From Naegleria gruberi (Eukaryota): a DNA stretch of 64,000 nt. Made by a program: the position numbers and the translations under genes. Positions 42,532 to 64,000 of this stretch are shown here, piece by piece; the stretch's first letter is position 1, and the number at the start of each line of letters is the position of its first letter. The notes below the pieces were generated by a model. The model searched no databases and was not told the origin of the DNA. It saw only the letters and a list, made by a program, of their open reading frames with translations. The DNA lies in NCBI GenBank assembly GCA_000004985.1, contig GG738896.1; one strand, written 5' to 3'.

Positions 42532-44956
42532 ATGTCAATTCAAATATCAAGAGTCGGTTTGATGAACTCACTCTTGTTGATTTGTATTCTTCTTGCAACA
42601 TTGATGGTGAGTGGTATTGATACTACTGCTGCTGTTACTACTAGAACCAAATCAGCAGTGCCAACAATTCCCGCCAAATACTTTAAAAAATTACAAGGAC
42701 CACCATCAGAGTTTTCTCTTCACGCTTATCCAAAGCCTTCCGAAGGAGCTATTCAATCAGACTTTTATTTATATGTAGAGAAGTTTAAAAAGAGTGAGAG
42801 CTTGAAGGCCTCGACAACACATCAATATGAATGGAGTGCTCGTGTTGCTGTTGATAGTTCTGAACAAGTGGATTTATCCTTACTCTCACAATATGTCAAG
42901 AGTATGCGTGTTCAAGTTTTGGATCAACATGGTACTGACATTACTTCAATGGCTAGTTTTGTTGTTGATGAGGAAAGTTTTGGAGCCTTCTCAGATGGTG
43001 AAAATAACTTGTTACCTTCAAAAACTTTGAGATTTGATGCCAACTCAATTCGTCGTTTGAAAATCAATCAAAAGAGCAAGCAAACTAGTATTGGAAGTAA
43101 TTATATTGATGAATGGATTGTAAATGTTTTTGTTGATGCACCTGCTTCAGCTCCAACCTATTATGACGATGAAGCATTGCACTTGTTGGTCTATAATCAA
43201 TCTCCACTTCGTGCCTATACTCAATTACAATCATATGACAATCAATTGGTTGGTGAAAATGTCATTATTGAAACTTTCATGTATGATGAAGATGTAACTC
43301 CAGTTAAGGCAATCAATGATATTCCAAGACCAATTCGTGTCTTTGCCACTGCCACTGATGAAACAATTTTGAGTGCTCAAATGGAAATCTTGTCACCAAG
43401 TGGTCAAGAAACCTCTATCAACATGCTTGATAATGGTCTTTTGGGTGATCGTATGGAAAATGATGGAATTTACTCTGCTGCTCTCAATGCTCAAGAAGCT
43501 GGTGACTATGTTATCACTGTCTCAGTCAAGGGTGTTATCAAGGGTAATGCCGTAAAGAATATCTCACGTCTCATTAATCAAGATCTCGTTGAATTTGAAA
43601 GAAGTACACACCATGTTGTTTCAATTGTTAAAAAGTCACTCGAGTTGACTCAAAATGCTGTTTTCTCATTCAATGCTCCTTCTGTTAAAACTGCTCAAAT
43701 TGCTGATGTCACCTCACAAATGGTCGACGTCAAGTTGGTTGCCAAGCCATTAGATGCTGACGCTTTAGGTAAAAAGTTCAAGGCCTATGCTGAAGTTTAC
43801 TCTGCCGGTGATGCTAAATCAAGTGTTCCAATTGCTTTTGTTTCAGGTATGGCCATTGCTGAAAAGTGTGACGGTACTGAATGCCCAGAAGGACTTATCT
43901 ACTTGCCACTCCAAATGAGTTTGGCTTGGGTTGCTTTGGCTAGACAACAATCTAATGGAGTTATTTCTGCTCCATTCATTTTGAAGAATGTCAATATTCA
44001 AGATGTTGCCACCTCTAATATTATTACCAAAGCTGATCAAACTCTTCCTGAATTGACTAGTTGTCATATCAAGTTACCAGAACATACCTTGTACAATGCT
44101 AGACCAGTTGATATTAACTACTTTTTAAACACTCATGAAGGTATGGAAAAGTTTGATGGTGTCATTACTGAATCAATGTTGTTTGGTCCAAGACCAACTG
44201 AAATTGCCACTAAGAGCCTTACCTCTTCAACACAACACAAGGTCTTGCTTATCCATGGTTATTGTTCTGGTTATGCTCCATTCCCAAGCTCTGATTTCAC
44301 CAATGCTGTCTATTTCAGTGATCATAATGCCAACAGAAACAATGATGAATTTGCCAGTATGATTTTCGAACTTGGTCAAACCTTTGATTCATTCTCAATG
44401 GTTGGTCACTCACAAGGTGGTCTTGCTTCATTGCACTTATTTGCTTATTATTGGACTCATGCTGACGTTGCTGCTGCCTCAAAGAAGACTTTGGCTGGTG
44501 AAACTAGAAGAATTATCCAATCTGTTGGTTCTCCATACAGAGGATCTGGTTTGGCTGGTGTTTTGGCTAGTATTGGTAAAGTTGTTGGAATTGGATGTGG
44601 TAAACAAACTGATTTGACCTATGATGGCGCCAGTAAGTGGCTCAGTTCTATTCCAGTTGCTGCTCGTCAAGCTCTCTATTACTCTTACACTCAATATAAG
44701 GATTGGTCTTGGTGTTCATTGCCAGCTAATGTAAGTATTTTATTTTTTAAAACTCAATTTACCAACTATGTCAATTCTAAAGGCTGTTTTGAAATTACCA
44801 AACGATGGAACCTGTGAAAAGAGTAGAGCTTCTGTTGATGGTGCAAATCACTATGACAGCAAGAAGGGATGGTGTCACACCAACAAGATGAAATACAAAG
44901 GTCAATGTGAAGACTCTGAAAGAAATGCCGTTCTTAACAAGTATGCCCAGTTGTAA
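42532..44956 (+). CDS. Secreted alpha/beta-hydrolase (lipase/esterase-like, GHSQGG nucleophile elbow). Two exons, join(42532..44730, 44783..44956), with a 52-nt intron.
   Basis: Signal peptide 'MSIQISRVGLMNSLLLICILLATLMVSG'. The C-terminal domain has 'KVLLIHGYCSGYAPF' and 'FSMVGHSQGGLASL' (the GxSxG lipase motif). The track ORF 42532..44817 ends in intron read-through. A GTAAGT donor at 44731 and a TCTAAAG acceptor at 44782 join in phase 0 to ORF 44768..44956. That exon encodes a Cys-containing tail 'AVLKLPNDGTCEKSRASVDGANHYDSKKGWCHTNKMKYKGQCEDSERN...'. Confidence 0.55.
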
Positions 44957-45149
44957 ATAAACAACCCATACAGATTTCTCTCCCATGACCAAATATTATC
45001 TCTTGGATTACGACTGCCATAAATAACAATATGAAATAAGGAATATAATCTTATCAAATTTGTGGAAAAGATCACTTCTCAGCCAAGTTCAAATATGGCA
45101 TATGACAAATCTCTCAAGATGCACACTAACCTAGGGATTGTTTTCAAGA

Positions 45150-45660
45150 CCTGACTCGAGTTTGAATTATTTCGCTTAATGTACCGAACTCGCAAGATCA
45201 CCTCCAAAATGGTGTGTGAAAAGGTCTTTAGTGCAAATAGAAACCAAACTGGACCATTGCCCAAGGTGAATGTCGTTAATGTTACATTGGCTTGCATGTG
45301 TTTCGGTGAAGGTGAATTCAATCAATTTCCATACTATATAGTATTACACTATAACCATTGAAGAATCCAAGAATTTGATGGTTTGGGCTCTGAAGAATTC
45401 CGGCCAAAACTTTACAACCAAAGTACTTGATGCACCTTATATTTTGGTTTCTGAACATTTTCAAACAGAGCTGTTATAAAGAATCTATGGAACTCTTCAA
45501 GACTTATCCAGATGGGGCCTTTGGTATCCGGTTCTTGGTAGTTTTATTCAAACTTTCTACTCCGTTCCACTTTGGTCTTTCAAAAGTCAATATTTCACTC
45601 AAACAAATTGCCAGCTTCTTGTCAGGTGTGAGTTACACGAGTGTTAATTAAGGTTATTAG
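45150..45660 (+). pseudogene. Decayed partial duplicate (pseudogene) of the N-terminal sensor region of the downstream cyclase-like receptor gene.
   Basis: ORF fragments 45179..45361 ('VNVVNVTLACMCFGEGEFN') and 45427..45651 ('ESMELFKTYPDGAFGIRF...FGLSKVNISLKQIASFLSGV') are in different frames. They align with 'MRVYNITLANLCYGEGGLN' and 'ESLSLFQNYPQGAFGNVY...LGISKVNISLTLIGKFLASV' of the 803-aa protein. A segment of about 60 aa between them is deleted and there are stops, so the copy is non-functional. Confidence 0.45.
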
Positions 45661-46185
45661 AAGTTTCTTGGATACCGAAAATGAAACACCACTTCACATT
45701 GAATAAAAATTCAATTCAAGTTACTCCATTGGTTTTATATTGTGAATGTTGATGTTGTGAATTAATTGTTGAAGGGAGTCTCTAGACCAGTAAAAGCACG
45801 AAATCGTAAAGTTTGACATTTGGCTTCTTTGGCTTCTAATAATTATACAGGGTCGGCCAACAACAAGCAAGAATAGTTAAGGTAATGTCCTTAATTGCTC
45901 ACTTCCTTAATAGTATAAACACGCACCCTATGACCATTTCCAAGTTTTGATCTCTGCTTGTTAAATACCTCTCTGGATTGAGCGAAGAGTACCATTTTTC
46001 AATCTTTACCAAACTCTACAATCCATCTCTCTGTCAACTACCATCACCTCAAAAATAAAACAATGATCCACAACAAGTAATTTCTTTTATCCTGATGCCA
46101 AATGATGTTTGTAATGGTAATAGTAGAGAGCATCTATCAAAATGACCTCTTTCCATTGTTTGATGCCTCAATTCTTTAAAACAAA

Positions 46186-48597
46186 ATGACTAGACGAATC
46201 GTTCCAGAAAATGCAGAATCCAGTTGGAAAGCAAGTCAAAAAGAAGAAGTTGAAGAGGAGGAACAATTGTTGGTCGCTGAGAAGAAGGAAAAGAGGCCTC
46301 TGATTCTTGGGATTTTACTTTCGGTTAGATTATTCTTGATTATTGTCATTATGAGTGTTGTATTATTGACGGCCTTGTCAATTTGGATAACTTCATACAA
46401 AGTCAATCAGGATCAAGCAATGGAAGCAGTTAATGTATTGATTTCGAATATTAGAGAAAAGGTTTCGAATTTCTTGAATAGTCAATTGGTACCTGCCAAG
46501 CAAGTAGCTCAGCAAATGGCCTATGATTACCATAATAAGTATGTCAAAATAGATGACAGTGCCTTGCCATATGTCTTTTCAAAAATGAGAGTTTATAACA
46601 TTACACTTGCTAACTTATGTTATGGTGAAGGTGGTTTAAATGCAATGCAAGCAGTTACAGTGGACGAAACTAAGGGATCTTTCGTTTGGGCAAAGAAGAA
46701 TCCTGGAGAAAATTTCCTTACATGGATTTTAGATTCAGATACTGGAGCAGTTGTAAAATCGTATGGATTGATTCTTCCTGCCTATCCAGTTGGTAAAATG
46801 GACTATTATGTTGAATCGTTGAGTTTATTCCAAAATTATCCTCAAGGTGCTTTTGGAAATGTCTATCAAGTGATTAACAGTTCAATGCAGACATTCTTCT
46901 CTGTTCCAATTTATAACACAACGAATACTACATCAAAGCAAAGACTTGGTATTTCAAAAGTCAACATTTCACTAACCTTAATAGGAAAATTCCTGGCAAG
47001 TGTTGAAGTTTTGACACGTGGGTTTGTCATTGTTTCAGAATTCAACACAGATTATGTAATTGGTTCCTCCCTTGACATTCCAGAACTTTTACTCCAAAGA
47101 ATTCACTCGGTCAACATTTCCCAGCACAATGCAGGAGAAATTATGAGAAAGTTTCATGAACTTTCGGGTAAAGTTGAAACCTTCCAAACTACTCTAACCA
47201 TTGGACAAACCACTTATCTTATCAGTTCTAGTGCGTATGTGTTTGAGAATATTAAATGGAGAATGACACTTGTCTTTGAGGAGAGTGAAATTATGGAAGG
47301 TATCATTGTAAGCAGTTACATCATTTTGGGAGTTACAGTTGGTGTTTGTTTATTAGGTATTTTGATAAGTGTTTTGATTGGAAATGTGGTGACGAATCCT
47401 TTCGTCCAACTCGAAAAGGATTTTAAAAAGATTGAAATGCTTGATTTGGCAAATATTAAGCCAAGATCGTCACTCTTCTCAGAAGCTGCAAATATTTATG
47501 CATGTTTAACTGCAACTGTTCAGTGGTTGAAAGATTTTAAATCTTTTCTTCCTGATTCAGTTTTGAATCAATTATCAGATTCGAATAATGATACTTGTGA
47601 TAAGGATAAGGATCCTCCTGGTGATTCATCATTAAGAGAAAGTGCAAGTGCCATTAATTTATCCAATCGCAAATCTGAAACTCAATCAAGAATCAGTTCC
47701 CATCATGACAAGAAGAGAGACATGTTTAAATTGGGATTATCAGTCAAGGAATGTTGTGTTGTTAATGTCAGAATTAATAACATGAATGAGAAATATTTCT
47801 CAGATCCTGATGTACTTTCACAAACAATTTCTAAGGTTTTAACTGGAATTTCAACAATTTGTAAAACAGTTCGAGCTGATTTACAAATTAAGAGTTATGA
47901 TGAATTTTTGGTGATTTTTGCTGATCGACCACAAGTTTCAAATATTGGATTGGAAACTGCATTGAAGATTGTTGCTGGAATTGGTCATTTGAATGATAAT
48001 TTGACAAGAAATGGTCATGGAAAGTTGATCAATTCCATTGGCATTGCCTCTGGAAATTCACTGCAAGGAAATGTTGGAAACAAACAAACAAGATACTTTG
48101 CTCTTGTTGGCACAGTGATTGAAAGGGCAAAAGATTTGTGTTTCATGAGCTCACAATTCGAAACTCCAGTCTTGACTGATCAAATCACTTTCAAACATGG
48201 TAAACAATTTGTTTTCAGACCAGTGGATAGAGTTAAAGATAAGGATGGAAATCTCTTCACTGTTCATGAATTGGTAAAGAAGAATTTGGTTGAGAATGAT
48301 GAGTGGCTCTACGAATTGGAACAAAAGAGGCAAAACTCCAAGCACAACGATTATACTCTAAGTGTGGAGAAGCTCTTTCAAGCAAGAGAGAATGATTCAA
48401 TTATTCCTACAGAAGAACTCAATTCAATTCGTGAATGTTTACTCTCCTATCAAGATGAATGTCCTACTGATAAGGTGGTAAAGAGAATGGCCAACCTCTC
48501 CACCCAAACAAATGATTTCTCCAATTATCATTCAAATGTTGCAAAGATTATAAGAAGCTATTTAAATGTTGATAGACCTGTACATATTAATGAATAA
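46186..48597 (+). CDS. Receptor-like membrane protein: TM helix, about 300 aa of extracellular sensor domain, a second TM helix, then a cytoplasmic class-III nucleotidyl cyclase homology domain with divergent catalytic residues. 803 aa.
   Basis: TM1 is 'LILGILLSVRLFLIIVIMSVVLLTALSIWI' (aa about 38-68). TM2 is 'IIVSSYIILGVTVGVCLLGILISVLIGNVV' (aa about 375-405). Cyclase-like region: 'YDEFLVIFADRPQ', then 'NSIGIASGNSLQGNVGNKQTRYFALVGTVIERAKDL' (compare cyclase 'hiGihtGpvvaGvvG...rYdvwGdtVNlAsRmEs'). The first metal-binding Asp and the transition-state Asn/Arg are substituted. Confidence 0.5.
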   Translation: MTRRIVPENAESSWKASQKEEVEEEEQLLVAEKKEKRPLILGILLSVRLFLIIVIMSVVLLTALSIWITSYKVNQDQAMEAVNVLISNIREKVSNFLNSQLVPAKQVAQQMAYDYHNKYVKIDDSALPYVFSKMRVYNITLANLCYGEGGLNAMQAVTVDETKGSFVWAKKNPGENFLTWILDSDTGAVVKSYGLILPAYPVGKMDYYVESLSLFQNYPQGAFGNVYQVINSSMQTFFSVPIYNTTNTTSKQRLGISKVNISLTLIGKFLASVEVLTRGFVIVSEFNTDYVIGSSLDIPELLLQRIHSVNISQHNAGEIMRKFHELSGKVETFQTTLTIGQTTYLISSSAYVFENIKWRMTLVFEESEIMEGIIVSSYIILGVTVGVCLLGILISVLIGNVVTNPFVQLEKDFKKIEMLDLANIKPRSSLFSEAANIYACLTATVQWLKDFKSFLPDSVLNQLSDSNNDTCDKDKDPPGDSSLRESASAINLSNRKSETQSRISSHHDKKRDMFKLGLSVKECCVVNVRINNMNEKYFSDPDVLSQTISKVLTGISTICKTVRADLQIKSYDEFLVIFADRPQVSNIGLETALKIVAGIGHLNDNLTRNGHGKLINSIGIASGNSLQGNVGNKQTRYFALVGTVIERAKDLCFMSSQFETPVLTDQITFKHGKQFVFRPVDRVKDKDGNLFTVHELVKKNLVENDEWLYELEQKRQNSKHNDYTLSVEKLFQARENDSIIPTEELNSIRECLLSYQDECPTDKVVKRMANLSTQTNDFSNYHSNVAKIIRSYLNVDRPVHINE

Positions 48598-59362: not shown

Positions 59363-60981
59363 CTTGGGTTTGGGTTGGTGGGGTTTGGGTGAGTTTTATA
59401 CACTTTCATACAATAGAGTGATATTGAAATGTACCCTTTGATATTTCTGGATGGGTAGCATGATTTAGTGATGATTCCGACAATAAAAATCATATATTGT
59501 TCATATAATTATCAAGATATTGTATAATTTATTAAATATAAAGTGGGTAATATTGAATATTCTTTGTAGGAGCGGAAGCACTTATTCTTGTCAGTTGGAG
59601 TCAGTATTGTATTAAGGTTCATTTTAGGAATCTTAAAAAAATACAATAACAACTCACCTGCATCAACATCATCAAGTATATCATCTATATTGAATATAAA
59701 GCAACAGCAAGAATGTATGGAGTTGATTCAACATGATTATTGGATTGGAGAGATGGCAAAAATATTACTATTATTGTATTTGTCAAGTTGGAAGTACCCT
59801 CAGGATCATCAGCGAGGTTTCCTCTTCATCTCTTCTTGTTAGAGAGGTTTTTCATCCACAAGATGGTCATCTTCTTCATTGAAGAGGTTGCTTTATTATT
59901 AAGCACTGAGAGAAGCGTTTTTAAATTTTATTTTGATGAAATAAATCAAAATTTATTACGCACAACACATCAAGAACAACAACAGCAACATGCTGATACA
60001 CCATCATCATCACTGGGTGAATTGGCCATCATTGTTGTATAATTTCTTGGAATTTATTGGATTAACAGTAAATTTTGGAATTACTCTCCTATTGAAGATG
60101 GAACATCAGCAACATCACCAAGATGATCTTCAATTGGATAGTATTGTTTTCAGAAGTGGTTTCACGCTTTTTGTGGGCTCTTTCAACATACCATCATCAG
60201 AATGGTCATCATCTTGTTGAGGGAAGATGTTCAACCTTGTTTTGGAAAGTAGAATATCTTACCACCACTCTATTCTCCTATTTTGATTGGATTGGTGGAG
60301 GTGCCACCACCTCTTCATACATTGGGTTTGGGTTGGTGGGGTTTGGGTGAGTTTTATACACTTTCATACAATAGAGTGATATTGAAATGTACCCTTTGAT
60401 ATTTCTGGATGGGTAGCATGATTTAGTGATGATTCCGACAATAAAAATCATATATTGTTCATATAATTATCAAGATATTGTATAATTTATTAAATATAAA
60501 GTGGGTAATATTGAATATTCTTTGTAGGAGCGGAAGCACTTATTCTTGTCAGTTGGAGTCAGTATTGTATTAAGGTTCATTTAAGGAATCTTAAAAAAAT
60601 ACAATAACAACTCACCTGCATCAACATCATCAAGTATATCATCTATATTGAATATAAAGCAACAGCAAGAATGTATGGAGTTGATTCAACATGATTATTG
60701 GATTGGAGAGATGGCAAAAATATTACTATTATTGTATTTGTCAAGTTGGAAGTACCCTCAGGATCATCAGCGAGGTTTCCTCTTCATCTCTTCTTGTTAG
60801 AGAGGTTTTTCATCCACAAGATGGTCATCTTCTTCAATTGAAGAGGTTGCTTTATTATTAAGCACTGAGAGAAGCGTTTTTAAATTTTATTTTGATGAAA
60901 TAAATCAAAATTTATTACGCACAACACATCAAGAACAACAACAGCAACATGCTGATACACCATCATCATCACTGGGTGAAT
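59363..60981. repeat. Subtelomeric direct tandem repeat with a 959-bp unit. There are at least 1.7 copies, the second cut off by the assembly gap. Each unit begins with a degenerate telomere-like tract (GGGTTTGGGTTGGTGGGGTTTGGGTGAG).
   Basis: 59365-60323 and 60324-60981 are near-identical, offset exactly 959 bp. An example is '...gagttttatacactttcatacaatagagtgatattgaaatgtaccctttgatatttctggatgggtagcatgatttagtgatgattccgac...' in both copies. Only single-base differences were seen, for example tttaggaatc versus ttaaggaatc. Confidence 0.7.
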
Positions 60982-62796
60982 NNNNNNNNNNNNNNNNNNN
61001 NNNNNNNNNNNNNNNNNNNNNNNNNNNNNNNNNNNNNNNNNNNNNNNNNNNNNNNNNNNNNNNNNNNNNNNNNNNNNNNNNNNNNNNNNNNNNNNNNNNN
61101 NNNNNNNNNNNNNNNNNNNNNNNNNNNNNNNNNNNNNNNNNNNNNNNNNNNNNNNNNNNNNNNNNNNNNNNNNNNNNNNNNNNNNNNNNNNNNNNNNNNN
61201 NNNNNNNNNNNNNNNNNNNNNNNNNNNNNNNNNNNNNNNNNNNNNNNNNNNNNNNNNNNNNNNNNNNNNNNNNNNNNNNNNNNNNNNNNNNNNNNNNNNN
61301 NNNNNNNNNNNNNNNNNNNNNNNNNNNNNNNNNNNNNNNNNNNNNNNNNNNNNNNNNNNNNNNNNNNNNNNNNNNNNNNNNNNNNNNNNNNNNNNNNNNN
61401 NNNNNNNNNNNNNNNNNNNNNNNNNNNNNNNNNNNNNNNNNNNNNNNNNNNNNNNNNNNNNNNNNNNNNNNNNNNNNNNNNNNNNNNNNNNNNNNNNNNN
61501 NNNNNNNNNNNNNNNNNNNNNNNNNNNNNNNNNNNNNNNNNNNNNNNNNNNNNNNNNNNNNNNNNNNNNNNNNNNNNNNNNNNNNNNNNNNNNNNNNNNN
61601 NNNNNNNNNNNNNNNNNNNNNNNNNNNNNNNNNNNNNNNNNNNNNNNNNNNNNNNNNNNNNNNNNNNNNNNNNNNNNNNNNNNNNNNNNNNNNNNNNNNN
61701 NNNNNNNNNNNNNNNNNNNNNNNNNNNNNNNNNNNNNNNNNNNNNNNNNNNNNNNNNNNNNNNNNNNNNNNNNNNNNNNNNNNNNNNNNNNNNNNNNNNN
61801 NNNNNNNNNNNNNNNNNNNNNNNNNNNNNNNNNNNNNNNNNNNNNNNNNNNNNNNNNNNNNNNNNNNNNNNNNNNNNNNNNNNNNNNNNNNNNNNNNNNN
61901 NNNNNNNNNNNNNNNNNNNNNNNNNNNNNNNNNNNNNNNNNNNNNNNNNNNNNNNNNNNNNNNNNNNNNNNNNNNNNNNNNNNNNNNNNNNNNNNNNNNN
62001 NNNNNNNNNNNNNNNNNNNNNNNNNNNNNNNNNNNNNNNNNNNNNNNNNNNNNNNNNNNNNNNNNNNNNNNNNNNNNNNNNNNNNNNNNNNNNNNNNNNN
62101 NNNNNNNNNNNNNNNNNNNNNNNNNNNNNNNNNNNNNNNNNNNNNNNNNNNNNNNNNNNNNNNNNNNNNNNNNNNNNNNNNNNNNNNNNNNNNNNNNNNN
62201 NNNNNNNNNNNNNNNNNNNNNNNNNNNNNNNNNNNNNNNNNNNNNNNNNNNNNNNNNNNNNNNNNNNNNNNNNNNNNNNNNNNNNNNNNNNNNNNNNNNN
62301 NNNNNNNNNNNNNNNNNNNNNNNNNNNNNNNNNNNNNNNNNNNNNNNNNNNNNNNNNNNNNNNNNNNNNNNNNNNNNNNNNNNNNNNNNNNNNNNNNNNN
62401 NNNNNNNNNNNNNNNNNNNNNNNNNNNNNNNNNNNNNNNNNNNNNNNNNNNNNNNNNNNNNNNNNNNNNNNNNNNNNNNNNNNNNNNNNNNNNNNNNNNN
62501 NNNNNNNNNNNNNNNNNNNNNNNNNNNNNNNNNNNNNNNNNNNNNNNNNNNNNNNNNNNNNNNNNNNNNNNNNNNNNNNNNNNNNNNNNNNNNNNNNNNN
62601 NNNNNNNNNNNNNNNNNNNNNNNNNNNNNNNNNNNNNNNNNNNNNNNNNNNNNNNNNNNNNNNNNNNNNNNNNNNNNNNNNNNNNNNNNNNNNNNNNNNN
62701 NNNNNNNNNNNNNNNNNNNNNNNNNNNNNNNNNNNNNNNNNNNNNNNNNNNNNNNNNNNNNNNNNNNNNNNNNNNNNNNNNNNNNNNNNNNNNNNN
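60982..62796. other. Assembly gap of 1815 N.
   Basis: Run of n characters. The flanks suggest it hides further copies of the 959-bp subtelomeric repeat. Confidence 0.95.
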
Positions 62797-63024
62797 TAAA
62801 AGAGGTCAAGGAGAGATTTCAAAACATAAAATAAATTATATTTTCGAGATGTACTATTGATTTCCAATCGATTGATATGTATTTTGTAGATTGAGGATGT
62901 GGTTCTTTATTTGAAGAGTTCCTCCTTAACTTACCAAGTAAACCCTGATATTTCACCCTTTACCTTACTGAATGATGGAATATTCACCAAAATATCTGTA
63001 AACTGAACCATATATATTATTAGA

Positions 63025-63500: not shown

Positions 63501-63548
63501 GATTTAATATGTTTTGATGAGAAACTCAAAAGTTATAGTTGACCTATT

Positions 63549-64000
63549 GGGTTTGGGTTGGGTTTGGGTTTGGGTTGGGTTTGGGTTTGGGTTTGGGTTT
63601 GGGTTTGGGTTTGGGTTTGGGTTTGGGTTTGGGTTTGGGTTTGGGTTTGGGTTTGGGTTTGGGTTTGGGTTTGGGTTTGGGTTTGGGTTTGGGTTTGGGT
63701 TTGGGTTTGGGTTTGGGTTTGGGTTTGGGTTTGGGTTTGGGTTTGGGTTTGGGTTTGGGTTTGGGTTTGGGTTTGGGTTTGGGTTTGGGTTTGGGTTTGG
63801 GTTTGGGTTTGGGTTTGGGTTTGGGTTTGGGTTTGGGTTTGGGTTTGGGTTTGGGTTTGGGTTTGGGTTTGGGTTTGGGTTTGGGTTTGGGTTTGGGTTT
63901 GGGTTTGGGTTTGGGTTTGGGTTTGGGTTTGGGTTTGGGTTTGGGTTTGGGTTTGGGTTTGGGTTTGGGTTTGGGTTTGGGTTTGGGTTTGGGTTTGGGT
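63549..64000 (+). repeat. Telomere: about 75 tandem GGGTTT (TTTGGG) hexamers with occasional GGGTT variants. The G-rich strand is oriented toward the window end.
   Basis: Perfect hexamer periodicity to the last base of the window. The TG-rich strand runs 5'->3' toward the terminus, as expected for a right chromosome end. Confidence 0.85.

What the first reader, a model, noticed from the sequence alone, without database searches (positions are those of the whole stretch)
45150..48597. Receptor-type pseudo-cyclase gene preceded by a decayed tandem partial copy of its own 5' region
The 803-aa protein has a TM / extracellular sensor / TM / cytoplasmic class-III cyclase-fold topology, but key catalytic positions are replaced (VNLASRME to VIERAKDL, and DIVGFT to ADRPQV). 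This suggests a non-catalytic signalling or dimerisation module, or a divergent active site. About 0.6 kb upstream, on the same strand, is a frameshifted and internally deleted copy of the sensor-domain N-terminus. The copy shares GEGxxN, YPxGAFG and G(L/I)SKVNISL blocks with the gene. This records a local tandem duplication followed by degeneration.
Basis: seen in the sequence. Interest (0 to 1): 0.55.

Follow-up and report, generated by a model that had tools for sequence, protein, structure and literature searches.

The report
Naegleria pseudo-cyclase receptor plus decayed fragment
A subtelomeric Naegleria gruberi gene encodes a membrane receptor whose cyclase-like output domain has lost most of the residues needed to make cAMP or cGMP, and a broken, non-coding relic of part of its sensor domain lies just upstream; both are real, but this is a modest curiosity, not a surprise.

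Summary
Both parts of the observation hold. The window is Naegleria gruberi DNA and ends in the (TTTGGG)n telomere-like repeat, so the locus lies about 15 kb from a chromosome end.

**The gene.** ORF 46186-48597 (803 aa) has this layout: TM1, a double-Cache ectodomain, TM2, a HAMP-like helix pair with an FLPxxVLxQL element, a poorly conserved Ser-rich linker, a class III cyclase-homology domain (CHD), and a conserved C-terminal extension (DEWLYELE).
- An active relative with the same sensor (P0070) was aligned to the family CHD (hhalign 96.8%).
- That alignment puts R529 at the first metal-binding Asp, E646 at the Asn, D650 at the Arg and A639 at the substrate-specifying residue.
- D572 sits at the second metal-binding Asp, but the closest homologues have N or C there.
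- Only 2 of 136 relatives keep all four key residues.
- The degenerate CHD is nevertheless conserved (about 50% identity across Naegleria paralogues and orthologues).

**The fragment.** Bases 45263-45633 are collinear with codons 133-273, the membrane-distal Cache module.
- Nucleotide identity is 67% with 13 indels; there are at least four frame changes plus stop codons.
- The reconstructed peptide is closest to the adjacent gene (46% identity; at most 40% to others).

ADRPQV is not the beta1 DIVGFT motif, which corresponds to VRINNM. The fragment is an isolated internal piece, so a simple tandem-unit duplication is not demonstrated.

The parts
46186..48597 (+). Gene: uninterrupted 803-aa ORF plus stop codon, encoding a receptor-type cyclase-homology protein of Naegleria gruberi
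   Evidence: ORF. It is 100% identical to the NCBI N. gruberi 'predicted protein' P0001 over 84% of its length. Homologues in N. lovaniensis and N. fowleri are 42-52% identical over the full length.
46297..46398 (+). TM1 (about aa 38-71)
   Evidence: Kyte-Doolittle peak at aa 36-71. It forms part of the long AF2 helix 39-116. About 68% identity to family members.
46399..47289 (+). Extracellular double-Cache (dCache_1-like) sensor domain, aa 72-368: stalk helix, membrane-distal module (about aa 126-275) and membrane-proximal module (about aa 276-368)
   Evidence: AF2 pLDDT is 60-86 here. Foldseek matches bacterial dCache ligand-binding domains (Mlp24, PctA, TlpC, TlpA) with TM-score 0.6-0.7 on the target and E 5e-9 to 1e-6. 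Relatives P0070 and P0075, which share this sensor, hit Pfam dCache_1 at E 6e-7 and 3e-8, below the gathering score. The window protein gives no Pfam hit.
46582..47004 (+). Segment of the gene (codons 133-273, membrane-distal Cache module) that is collinear with the upstream fragment
47290..47391 (+). TM2 (about aa 369-402)
   Evidence: Hydropathy peak at aa 369-407. AF2 helix 366-415. About 62% identity to family members.
47392..47580 (+). HAMP-like helix-loop-helix (TNPFVQLEKDFKKIEMLDL...) followed by the invariant FLPDSVLNQL element. This is the best-conserved soluble segment
   Evidence: About 67.5% identity to family members, with many invariant columns. AF2 helices 366-415 and 434-452, at low pLDDT. 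Pfam HAMP was not detected. The HAMP and transducer-element assignment is an inference from the sequence pattern.
47581..47715 (+). Variable Ser/Asn/Lys-rich linker (aa 466-510), inserted between the FLPxxV element and the cyclase-homology domain
   Evidence: 13% identity to family members. pLDDT below 50. Absent from the active relatives P0070 and P0075, where the corresponding YVP element is about 25 aa from beta1.
47716..48285 (+). Degenerate class III cyclase-homology domain (aa 511-700). Positions: R529 for metal-binding Asp 1; D572 for metal-binding Asp 2 (with E573 invariant beside it); I568/K569 at the substrate Lys; A639 at the substrate Asp/Thr; E646 for Asn; D650 for Arg
   Evidence: Family profile against PDB class III cyclases, E 9e-7 to 4e-5. 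hhalign to the P0070 cyclase domain: 96.8%, E 2.8e-10, 165 columns. AF2 gives the order beta-alpha-beta-beta-alpha-beta-alpha. Foldseek matches Cya2 (2w01), sGC and OaPAC. Residue table.
48286..48594 (+). Conserved C-terminal helical extension, starting with NDEWLYELE (aa 704-712)
   Evidence: The DEW[LMF]YE[LM][EQD] motif is shared by most of the 150 best relatives. AF2 helices 706-794, at low confidence. The NCBI model P0001 replaces it through a predicted intron at 48199-48326.
45263..45633 (+). Pseudogene fragment: a disabled relic of codons 133-273 of a copy of the family, closest to the adjacent gene
   Evidence: tblastn gives three frames. Frameshift-aware score 136 against 33.5 +/- 4.4 for shuffles, with four frame changes and stop codons on the aligned path. 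67.1% nucleotide identity with 13 indels. Reconstructed peptide is 46% identical to the gene, 40% to P0002, 39% to P0003 and at most 37% to the others.
45179..45262 (+). Possible weak 5' extension of the fragment (RKITSKM...GPLP against KQVAQQM...SALP). Not statistically supported
   Evidence: Seen by eye in the MAFFT alignment. The frameshift-aware search of 44818-45262 scored no better than shuffles: 29 against 29 +/- 4.

Best explanation
**The gene.** It encodes a type of protist surface receptor built like a bacterial Cache-HAMP-cyclase. A dimeric double-Cache ectodomain would bind a small extracellular ligand. The signal would pass through TM2 and a HAMP-like, coiled-coil transducer segment to a cytoplasmic cyclase-homology domain.

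**The cyclase-homology domain.** In this clade the domain has lost the first metal-binding Asp and the transition-state Asn and Arg, and it has no conserved second Asp. It therefore cannot carry out the canonical two-metal cyclisation of ATP or GTP. It also cannot supply either half of a heterodimeric active site. The domain, and a clade-specific C-terminal DEWLYELE helical extension, are nevertheless conserved.

**Proposed output (inferred).** The output is most likely a ligand-dependent change of conformation or dimer geometry that is read by a partner protein. An alternative is sequestration of active cyclase monomers. Either way the output is not cNMP synthesis.

**The fragment.** The 371-bp stretch lies 552 bp upstream of the start codon on the same strand. 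It is a dead relic of the membrane-distal Cache module of a local duplicate of this gene. It arose in a subtelomeric region and has since decayed neutrally. It has no start codon, at least four frameshifts, stop codons, and deletions of 18 and 35 bp. Both its flanks have been lost or were never copied.

**Shown versus inferred.**
- Shown: homology, topology, the residue replacements, conservation of the domain, and the disablements of the fragment.
- Inferred: the lack of catalysis, the mode of output, and the duplication mechanism.
For: **Organism and location.**
- 100% match to an N. gruberi protein.
- The window ends in 76 copies of TTGGGT, i.e. (TTTGGG)n.
- TTTGGG is the candidate N. gruberi telomere repeat (PMC3622300).

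**Architecture.**
- Hydropathy.
- AF2 model.
- Foldseek: dCache ligand-binding domains and class III cyclases.
- Family profile against PDB cyclases.
- 10 of 12 family members hit PF00211 at E <= 0.1.

**Catalytic residues.**
- hhalign to P0070, an active-type relative with FTDIVQFT, YIGDALM and VNASSRIE: R529 for D, D572 for D, A639 for T, E646 for N, D650 for R.
- P0070 hits PF00211 at 1e-24.
- The same registers for Asn and Arg come from the HMMER alignment to OaPAC.
- Among 136 relatives: Asp1 present in 4, Asn in 17, Arg in 7.
- All four residues are present only in P0070 and P0075, whose similarity to the family lies mainly in the sensor half.

**Selection.**
- CHD identity about 50% and HAMP-like segment 67%, against 13% for the linker.

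**Fragment.**
-.
- No closer protein exists in the 5.8-billion-sequence collection.
- No family fragment lies next to the N. lovaniensis homologues.
Against: - No biochemical data exist. Some class III cyclases with non-canonical residues retain activity (own knowledge of mycobacterial examples, not verified here), and D572 and E573 could still bind a metal.
- The AF2 model has only moderate confidence (mean pLDDT 58.5). It could not be superposed residue by residue on a solved cyclase with these tools.
- The register around beta2-beta3 differs by one residue between HMMER (E573 at Asp 2) and hhalign (D572).
- The HAMP assignment is not supported by Pfam.
- For the fragment, quartet site counts favour gene plus fragment only against P0002 and P0003 (5:1:0). 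They are unresolved with more distant outgroups. A descent from an older, now-lost paralogue cannot be excluded.
- The complete N. gruberi genome could not be searched.
Confidence: 0.8

Rival explanations
1. The fragment is not a copy of the adjacent gene. It is the last remnant of a separate, older paralogue that once sat in tandem with it (for example the N. gruberi counterpart of the P0003/P0004 lineage), duplicated before the Naegleria species diverged and then mostly deleted.
For: - The third block of the fragment is as similar to P0003 and P0010 as to the gene.
- Quartet counts with outgroups P0005 or P0007 are unresolved: 2:3:2 and 0:3:2.
- The gene is much closer to its N. lovaniensis homologue (66% over these columns) than to the fragment (46%).
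- N. lovaniensis has more close family members (P0002, P0004, P0005, P0007, P0013, P0016) than the two found for N. gruberi.
Against: - Overall the fragment is closest to the adjacent gene at both protein level (46% against at most 40%) and nucleotide level (bit scores 45+40+33 against 38+27+27 for P0004 DNA and 28 for P0002 DNA).
- It shares GEG and the N of KNxG with the gene.
- The long branch is expected from neutral decay.
- P0002 and P0004 are not in tandem in N. lovaniensis.
Confidence: 0.2
2. The cyclase-homology domain is still an enzyme. It would use migrated or non-canonical residues (D572/E573, K569, R647/K649), make an unusual product, or act only as a heterodimer with another Naegleria cyclase.
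For: - D572 is at the second metal position in this protein, and E573 is nearly invariant beside it.
- K569 lies one residue from the substrate Lys position.
- Basic residues flank the lost Arg (RAKD).
- The domain is conserved.
- Naegleria encodes many cyclases that could act as partners (PMC9928731).
Against: - The first metal-binding Asp is R529 here, and R, T, H or S in the closest relatives. It is Asp in only 4 of 136 relatives.
- D572 is N or C in the closest homologues.
- The Asn position is not conserved at all: E, N, K, A, Y or Q.
- The domain lacks residues from both halves of the active site, so it cannot complete a site even in a heterodimer. This follows from the established class III mechanism.
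Confidence: 0.12
3. The fragment is functional: an alternative 5' exon, a small independent ORF, or a regulatory RNA or promoter element of the downstream gene that is kept by selection.
For: - It lies on the same strand in the 1.37-kb spacer just upstream of the gene.
- Short ORFs of 60 and 74 codons overlap it.
Against: - The similarity runs through three reading frames, with frame changes within about 25 bases of each other. That is too close for introns.
- There are stop codons and non-triplet indels on the aligned path.
- It matches no Rfam family.
- No protein in the large collection resembles its translation.
Confidence: 0.03

Closest known systems
Protist Cache1-HAMP-TM nucleotidyl cyclase III receptors (the 'pan-eukaryotic subfamily' described in the Euglena gracilis genome paper as closely related to N. 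gruberi genes; PMC6366073)
   Same: Two TM segments around a Cache-type ectodomain, a HAMP-like linker and a single cytoplasmic class III cyclase-homology domain, in a heterolobosean lineage. Relatives P0070 and P0075 have exactly this layout with an intact catalytic domain.
   Different: In this clade the catalytic residues are replaced. A variable 45-90-aa linker is inserted before the CHD. A DEWLYELE-type C-terminal extension is added. The paper does not mention degenerate members.
Bacterial dCache_1 sensors of chemoreceptors and kinases (Mlp24, PctA/B/C, TlpC, vpHK1S-Z8)
   Same: The ectodomain fold: a long stalk helix plus membrane-distal and membrane-proximal PAS-like modules between two TM helices. 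It has a DYYxES...PxGAFG...Y.V motif region resembling the distal-module pocket strands (the pocket role is inferred).
   Different: Sequence identity is only 9-16%. The Pfam dCache_1 model does not detect the window protein. The ligand is unknown. It occurs in a eukaryote with N-glycosylation sequons.
Pseudo-symmetric, non-catalytic halves of class III cyclase heterodimers (mammalian AC C1/C2, soluble guanylate cyclase alpha/beta)
   Same: A cyclase-fold domain that lacks part of the catalytic set but is kept for dimerisation and regulation. Foldseek hits to sGC chains.
   Different: In those heterodimers each partner keeps one complementary half of the residues. Here residues of both halves are missing, so no complete site can be formed with any partner. 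The statement about the heterodimers rests on established knowledge and was not tested here.
Unprocessed (duplicative) pseudogene fragments in subtelomeric regions
   Same: Same-strand local copy, about 15 kb from the telomere repeat, with multiple frameshifts, stops and deletions and no start codon.
   Different: Only an internal 371-bp piece survives, and both flanks are unrelated to the parent. The usual signatures of the duplication event are therefore gone.

Membership tests
Class III nucleotidyl cyclase (Pfam PF00211 Guanylate_cyc) | Sequence and fold homology of the catalytic domain (beta-alpha-alpha-beta-beta-alpha-beta core) | tested here: met
   - Family profile against PDB cyclases: E 9e-7 to 4e-5.
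- hhalign to an active relative: 96.8%.
- AF2 secondary-structure order.
- Foldseek matches Cya2, sGC and PAC.
- 10 of 12 family members hit PF00211 at E <= 0.1.
Class III nucleotidyl cyclase (Pfam PF00211 Guanylate_cyc) | The protein itself reaches the Pfam gathering score | tested here: not met
   No Pfam hit for the 803-aa protein or for its C-terminal 303 aa, even at E <= 10.
Class III nucleotidyl cyclase (Pfam PF00211 Guanylate_cyc) | Two metal-binding aspartates (beta1 and the beta2-beta3 turn) | tested here: not met
   - The first Asp is R529, and R, T, H or S in the closest relatives.
- The second is D572 here but N or C in the closest homologues.
- Asp 1 is present in 4 of 136 relatives.
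Class III nucleotidyl cyclase (Pfam PF00211 Guanylate_cyc) | Transition-state-stabilising Asn and Arg on helix alpha4 (N-x-x-x-R) | tested here: not met
   E646 and D650 by two independent alignments. In the close family the Arg position is D or N in every full-length member, and the Asn position is unconserved.
Class III nucleotidyl cyclase (Pfam PF00211 Guanylate_cyc) | Substrate-specifying pair (Lys and Asp/Thr for ATP, Glu and Cys for GTP) | tested here: not met
   I568 at the Lys column, with K569 one residue off. A639 at the Asp/Thr column. The register is uncertain by one residue.
Class III nucleotidyl cyclase (Pfam PF00211 Guanylate_cyc) | Cyclase activity | not testable with these tools
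   Needs an enzyme assay.
dCache_1 extracellular sensor (PF02743) | Double PAS-like fold with a long N-terminal stalk helix between two TM helices | tested here: met
   AF2 pLDDT 60-86 in aa 72-368. Foldseek to many solved dCache domains, TM-score 0.6-0.7 and probability 1.0.
dCache_1 extracellular sensor (PF02743) | Match to the Pfam model | tested here: not met
   No hit for the ectodomain at E <= 10. Relatives P0070 and P0075 with the homologous sensor match at E 6e-7 and 3e-8, below the gathering score of 45 bits.
HAMP domain (PF00672) | About 50-aa helix-connector-helix directly after TM2, with Pro near the start and a Gly/Asp-Leu connector; match to the model | tested here: inconclusive
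   The position and the two helices fit (AF2 366-415 and 434-452, low pLDDT). The pattern is TNPF...KKIEMLDL. Pfam gives no HAMP hit for three family members or for P0070 and P0075.
Duplicative (unprocessed) pseudogene fragment | Significant collinear similarity to a parent gene, plus disabling lesions and no intact ORF | tested here: met
   z about 23 at protein-DNA level and z about 12 at nucleotide level. Four frame changes, stop codons, 13 indels and no start codon.
Duplicative (unprocessed) pseudogene fragment | The parent is the adjacent gene (a tandem origin) | tested here: inconclusive
   Best identity is to the adjacent gene, and no closer protein exists in the database. However, phylogenetic site counts are weak, the flanks are unrelated, and the whole N. 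gruberi genome could not be searched.

The most novel reading that the evidence does not exclude
The gene belongs to a large, so far undescribed clade of protist receptor pseudo-cyclases.
- It occurs in Naegleria, Willaertia and Percolomonas, with more distant members in the cercozoan Papus and in many uncultured eukaryotes.
- There are 745 cluster representatives at E <= 1e-10. Of the best 150, only two, both sensor-only matches, keep the catalytic set.
- In this clade the class III cyclase fold, together with a signature DEWMYELE plus helical C-terminal module, would have been repurposed as a non-enzymatic output or adaptor domain.
- It is driven by varied N-terminal modules: dCache, other ectodomains and ankyrin repeats.
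- This would be a cyclase-family counterpart of pseudokinase receptors.
Probability: 0.45. Interest if true: 0.55.

Novelty: new variant of a known kind. Interest (0 to 1): 0.33.

Why it matters
- Naegleria genomes are reported to hold roughly 80 cyclases (PMC9928731), and these counts are used to argue for rich cAMP/cGMP signalling.
- If a sizeable, conserved clade of them cannot make cyclic nucleotides, those counts overstate enzymatic capacity. They would also hide a distinct class of receptors with an unknown output.
- The family offers a natural comparison for asking what a cyclase fold does when it no longer catalyses. Active (P0070-like) and degenerate versions share the same dCache sensor.
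- The upstream fragment matters only as a small record of subtelomeric gene turnover, and as a warning for gene predictors.
- The NCBI model of this gene also appears mis-spliced at its 3' end.

Tried and rejected
- **Pfam on the window protein.** Pfam on the whole protein and on each half returned nothing useful. Homology had to be shown through the family profile, an active relative and the predicted fold.
- **N. gruberi contig look-ups.** The look-up of encoding contigs for the N. gruberi proteins P0001 and P0006 returned 'not on record'. I could therefore not see the public gene models around the fragment or the context of the paralogue.
- **Synteny.** The N. lovaniensis and N. fowleri homologues (L001-L003) have unrelated neighbours and no upstream fragment. 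Synteny cannot date the duplication.
- **Search with the reconstructed peptide.** Searching the 5.8-billion-protein collection with it gave no scored hit. This argues against a closer living paralogue, but the word index limits sensitivity.
- **Extending the fragment.** Extension into 44818-45262 and 45634-46185 scored the same as shuffles.
- **Repeats in the spacer.** A self-comparison of the spacer against the whole window found no other repeat.
- **Non-coding RNA.** Rfam found nothing in the window.
- **Low-GC region.** The apparent 'GC 0.17-0.22, strong skew' region at 60-63 kb is an assembly gap of N, not biology.
- **Simple tandem duplication, rejected.** The DNA between the two homologous blocks (45634-46581) is not homologous to the DNA after the second block.
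- **Literature.** Searches for pseudo-cyclases gave nothing specific.

Full report
**Origin of the window**

- The 803-aa ORF at 46186-48597 is 100% identical, over 84% of its length, to an NCBI 'predicted protein' of Naegleria gruberi (P0001).
- Neighbouring ORFs carry eukaryotic domains: acyl-CoA oxidase, ARTD15_N, TSNAXIP1_N and TPR.
- The window ends in 76 copies of TTGGGT, that is (TTTGGG)n, with the G-rich strand running to the end.
- TTTGGG is the candidate telomere repeat reported for N. gruberi (PMC3622300).
- The locus is therefore subtelomeric, about 15 kb from a chromosome end.

**Check of the observation: the gene**

- Hydropathy gives two membrane segments, aa 36-71 and 369-407, with six N-x-S/T sequons between them.
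- The protein has no Pfam hit of its own.
- It belongs to a well-conserved family with twelve cluster representatives at 90% identity, from N. gruberi, N. lovaniensis, N. fowleri and environmental assemblies. These are 42-52% identical over the full length.
- Ten of the twelve match PF00211 at E <= 0.1, the best at 6.6e-8.
- The family profile finds solved class III cyclases (Cya2, OaPAC, bPAC, CyaB, sAC, sGC) with E from 9e-7 upward.

**Check of the observation: the fragment**

- tblastn of the protein against the 1368-nt spacer gives three collinear matches in three different frames, covering aa 133-273.
- A frameshift-aware alignment written for the purpose scores 136, against 33.5 +/- 4.4 for shuffled DNA. 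It needs four frame changes and passes stop codons.
- At nucleotide level, 45263-45633 aligns with 46582-47004 at 67.1% identity with 13 indels. In the fragment the gaps are 1, 3, 18, 7, 2, 7 and 35 nt. In the gene they are 2, 5, 2, 8, 1 and 3 nt. The score is 40.5, against -43 +/- 7 for shuffles.
- A family HMM run over all six frames of the window finds no other piece.
- The DNA on either side of the fragment is not detectably related to the rest of the gene or to anything else in the window.

**Anatomy of the protein**

An AlphaFold2 model built on the twelve-sequence alignment has moderate confidence overall (mean pLDDT 58.5). It is usable in the ectodomain (pLDDT 60-86) and in the core of the cyclase-like domain (pLDDT 68-82).

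- *Ectodomain.*
  - The model shows a long stalk helix (aa 39-116) and two alpha/beta modules (aa 126-365).
  - Foldseek against the PDB puts aa 72-368 with bacterial double-Cache ligand-binding domains: Mlp24, PctA/B/C, TlpA/C, McpH and vpHK1S-Z8. TM-scores on the target are 0.6-0.7.
- *Membrane and linker.*
  - TM2 continues as a helix to aa 415, followed by a second helix (aa 434-452).
  - After TM2 the sequence TNPFVQLEKDFKKIEMLDL...FSEAANIY...WLKDFKSFLPDSVLNQL has the layout of a HAMP domain followed by a cyclase-type transducer element. It is the most conserved soluble part (67% identity).
  - Pfam does not detect HAMP there, so I call it HAMP-like.
- *Cytoplasmic domain.*
  - The model shows a beta-alpha-beta-beta-alpha-beta-alpha unit (aa 519-658).
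  - Foldseek puts this domain with Cya2, soluble guanylate cyclase and photoactivated adenylate cyclases.

**Relatives beyond Naegleria, and an active comparator**

- An exhaustive profile search of 1.84 billion cluster representatives gave 745 proteins at E <= 1e-10.
  - About 70 share the whole architecture.
  - Many more share only TM2 to the C-terminus behind other N-terminal modules, including ankyrin repeats.
- Named members come from Naegleria, Willaertia magna, Percolomonas cosmopolitus and the cercozoan Papus ankaliazontas. The rest are from metagenomes.
- Two relatives, P0070 and P0075, match the family mainly through the sensor half.
  - They carry a canonical catalytic domain with FTDIVQFT, YIGDALM and VNASSRIE.
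  - They hit PF00211 at 1e-24 and 4e-27.
  - They also hit Pfam dCache_1 at 6e-7 and 3e-8, below the gathering score.
  - This gives sequence-level support for the Cache assignment and an ideal comparator for the catalytic residues.

**Catalytic residues**

hhalign of the family CHD against P0070 gave probability 96.8%, E 2.8e-10, over 165 columns.

| Canonical position | Window residue | Notes |
|---|---|---|
| First metal-binding Asp | R529 | R, T, H or S in the closest relatives; Asp in 4 of 136 relatives |
| Second metal-binding Asp | D572 | N in the closest N. lovaniensis homologue; C in the P0003/P0004 pair |
| Substrate Lys | I568 | K569 is one residue off |
| Substrate Thr/Asp | A639 | |
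| Transition-state Asn | E646 | Unconserved in the close family: E, N, K, A, Y or Q |
| Transition-state Arg | D650 | D or N in every full-length close family member |

- The HMMER alignment to OaPAC gives the same Asn and Arg registers. Near beta3 it is shifted by one residue, which would put the nearly invariant E573 at the second Asp. That ambiguity stays open.
- Across 136 relatives with this region aligned, Asn is present in 17 and Arg in 7. All four key residues occur only in P0070 and P0075.
- Residues from both halves of the dimeric active site are missing. By the established class III mechanism, the domain should therefore complete a site neither as a homodimer nor with a competent partner.
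- The domain is nevertheless conserved (about 50% identity) while the adjacent linker is not (13%).
- It is followed by a clade signature, DEW[LM]YE[LM][EQ], present in most of the 150 best relatives.
- This is the pattern of a pseudo-enzyme kept for a non-catalytic role.

- 'VNLASRME to VIERAKDL' points to the right helix but is one residue out of register.
- 'DIVGFT to ADRPQV' is wrong. ADRPQV (aa 579-584) lies after beta3 and aligns with OaPAC YFDGDCAD. The beta1 motif is VRINNM (aa 528-533).

**What the fragment is**

- It corresponds to the membrane-distal Cache module only (aa 133-273).
- The reconstructed peptide is 46% identical to the adjacent gene, 40% to P0002, 39% to P0003, 36.5% to P0004 and at most 37% to the other full-length members.
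- Nucleotide matches are also strongest to the adjacent gene.
- Site-pattern counts group the fragment with the gene against P0002 and P0003 (5:1:0). They are uninformative with more distant outgroups.
- No protein in the 5.8-billion collection resembles the peptide more closely.
- The homologues in N. lovaniensis and N. fowleri have different neighbours and no such fragment.
- The simplest reading is a local, same-strand duplication in the N. gruberi lineage followed by neutral decay and deletion.
- A simple head-to-tail duplication of one unit is excluded as the present structure. The DNA between the two copies includes the gene's own start and promoter region, and it is unrelated to what follows the second copy.
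- Whether a full copy was made and then eroded, or only a patch was inserted (for instance during break repair in this subtelomeric region), cannot be told.
- An exon role is very unlikely. The frame changes lie within about 25 bases of each other, and most indels are not multiples of three.

**Comparison with what is known**

- Cache1-HAMP-TM class III cyclase receptors in protists, related to N. gruberi genes, are described in the Euglena gracilis genome paper (PMC6366073).
- Naegleria genome papers count 81 or more cyclases (PMC9928731).
- I found no description of a catalytically degenerate clade or of the DEWMYELE extension. The library searched is incomplete.
- I therefore rate the gene as a new variant of a known kind, and the fragment as an ordinary pseudogene relic.

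**Verdict**

- Interest is modest (0.33).
- The part worth following up is not the fragment. It is the breadth and conservation of the degenerate-cyclase receptor clade.

Noticed in passing
window 63547-64000: 76 tandem copies of TTGGGT, i.e. (TTTGGG)n, run to the end of the window with the G-rich strand 5'->3' outward. TTTGGG is the candidate N. gruberi telomere repeat (PMC3622300). The window is therefore a chromosome end and the whole region is subtelomeric.
   Followed up: partly
window 60983-62786: A run of N (assembly gap). It explains the apparent very low GC and strong skew at 60-64 kb, and the giant overlapping 'ORFs' at 60929-62867 on both strands.
   Followed up: yes
window 48199-48326 (and stop codon 48393-48395 in another frame): The NCBI model of this gene (P0001, 693 aa) splices out 128 nt after ...TFKH and ends with EAKLQAQRLYSKCGEALSSKRE in another frame. 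This removes FVFRPVD...DEWLYELE, which every homologue conserves in the uninterrupted 803-aa ORF. The public model is probably mis-spliced.
   Followed up: partly
L001 12184-12219 (N. lovaniensis PYSW02000021.1): The closest N. lovaniensis homologue, P0002, changes frame near aa 700, and its gene span is about 94 nt longer than its CDS. That suggests a real short intron at about the place where the N. gruberi model wrongly predicts one.
   Followed up: no
L001 315-1876 (N. lovaniensis): About 8 kb upstream of P0002 lies a 934-aa gene that weakly matches the TM2-HAMP-CHD and C-terminal parts of the family HMM (iE 3e-8 and 2e-7). This is a second, more distant cyclase-like gene nearby. A piggyBac-type transposase gene (DDE_Tnp_1_7) sits directly upstream of P0002.
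   Followed up: no
L002 17195-21599 and L003 17476-21937: In both N. lovaniensis and N. fowleri, a roughly 1440-aa PF00211 cyclase gene lies about 5 kb downstream of the P0004/P0003 family member, in conserved synteny with BTB, UAA, TM2 and GBP genes.
   Followed up: no
window 42532-44817 (+): The upstream neighbour is a 761-aa ORF with an N-terminal signal-like segment and a GHSQGG motif typical of alpha/beta-hydrolase lipases. It has no Pfam hit at E <= 0.01.
   Followed up: no
relatives P0055, P0088, P0096, P0113, P0121, P0150: More distant members of the degenerate-cyclase clade (1150-1300 aa, from metagenomes) carry an N-terminal cytoplasmic ankyrin-repeat region in front of a different ectodomain, with the same TM2-HAMP-like-CHD-DEWxxE back half.
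   Followed up: no
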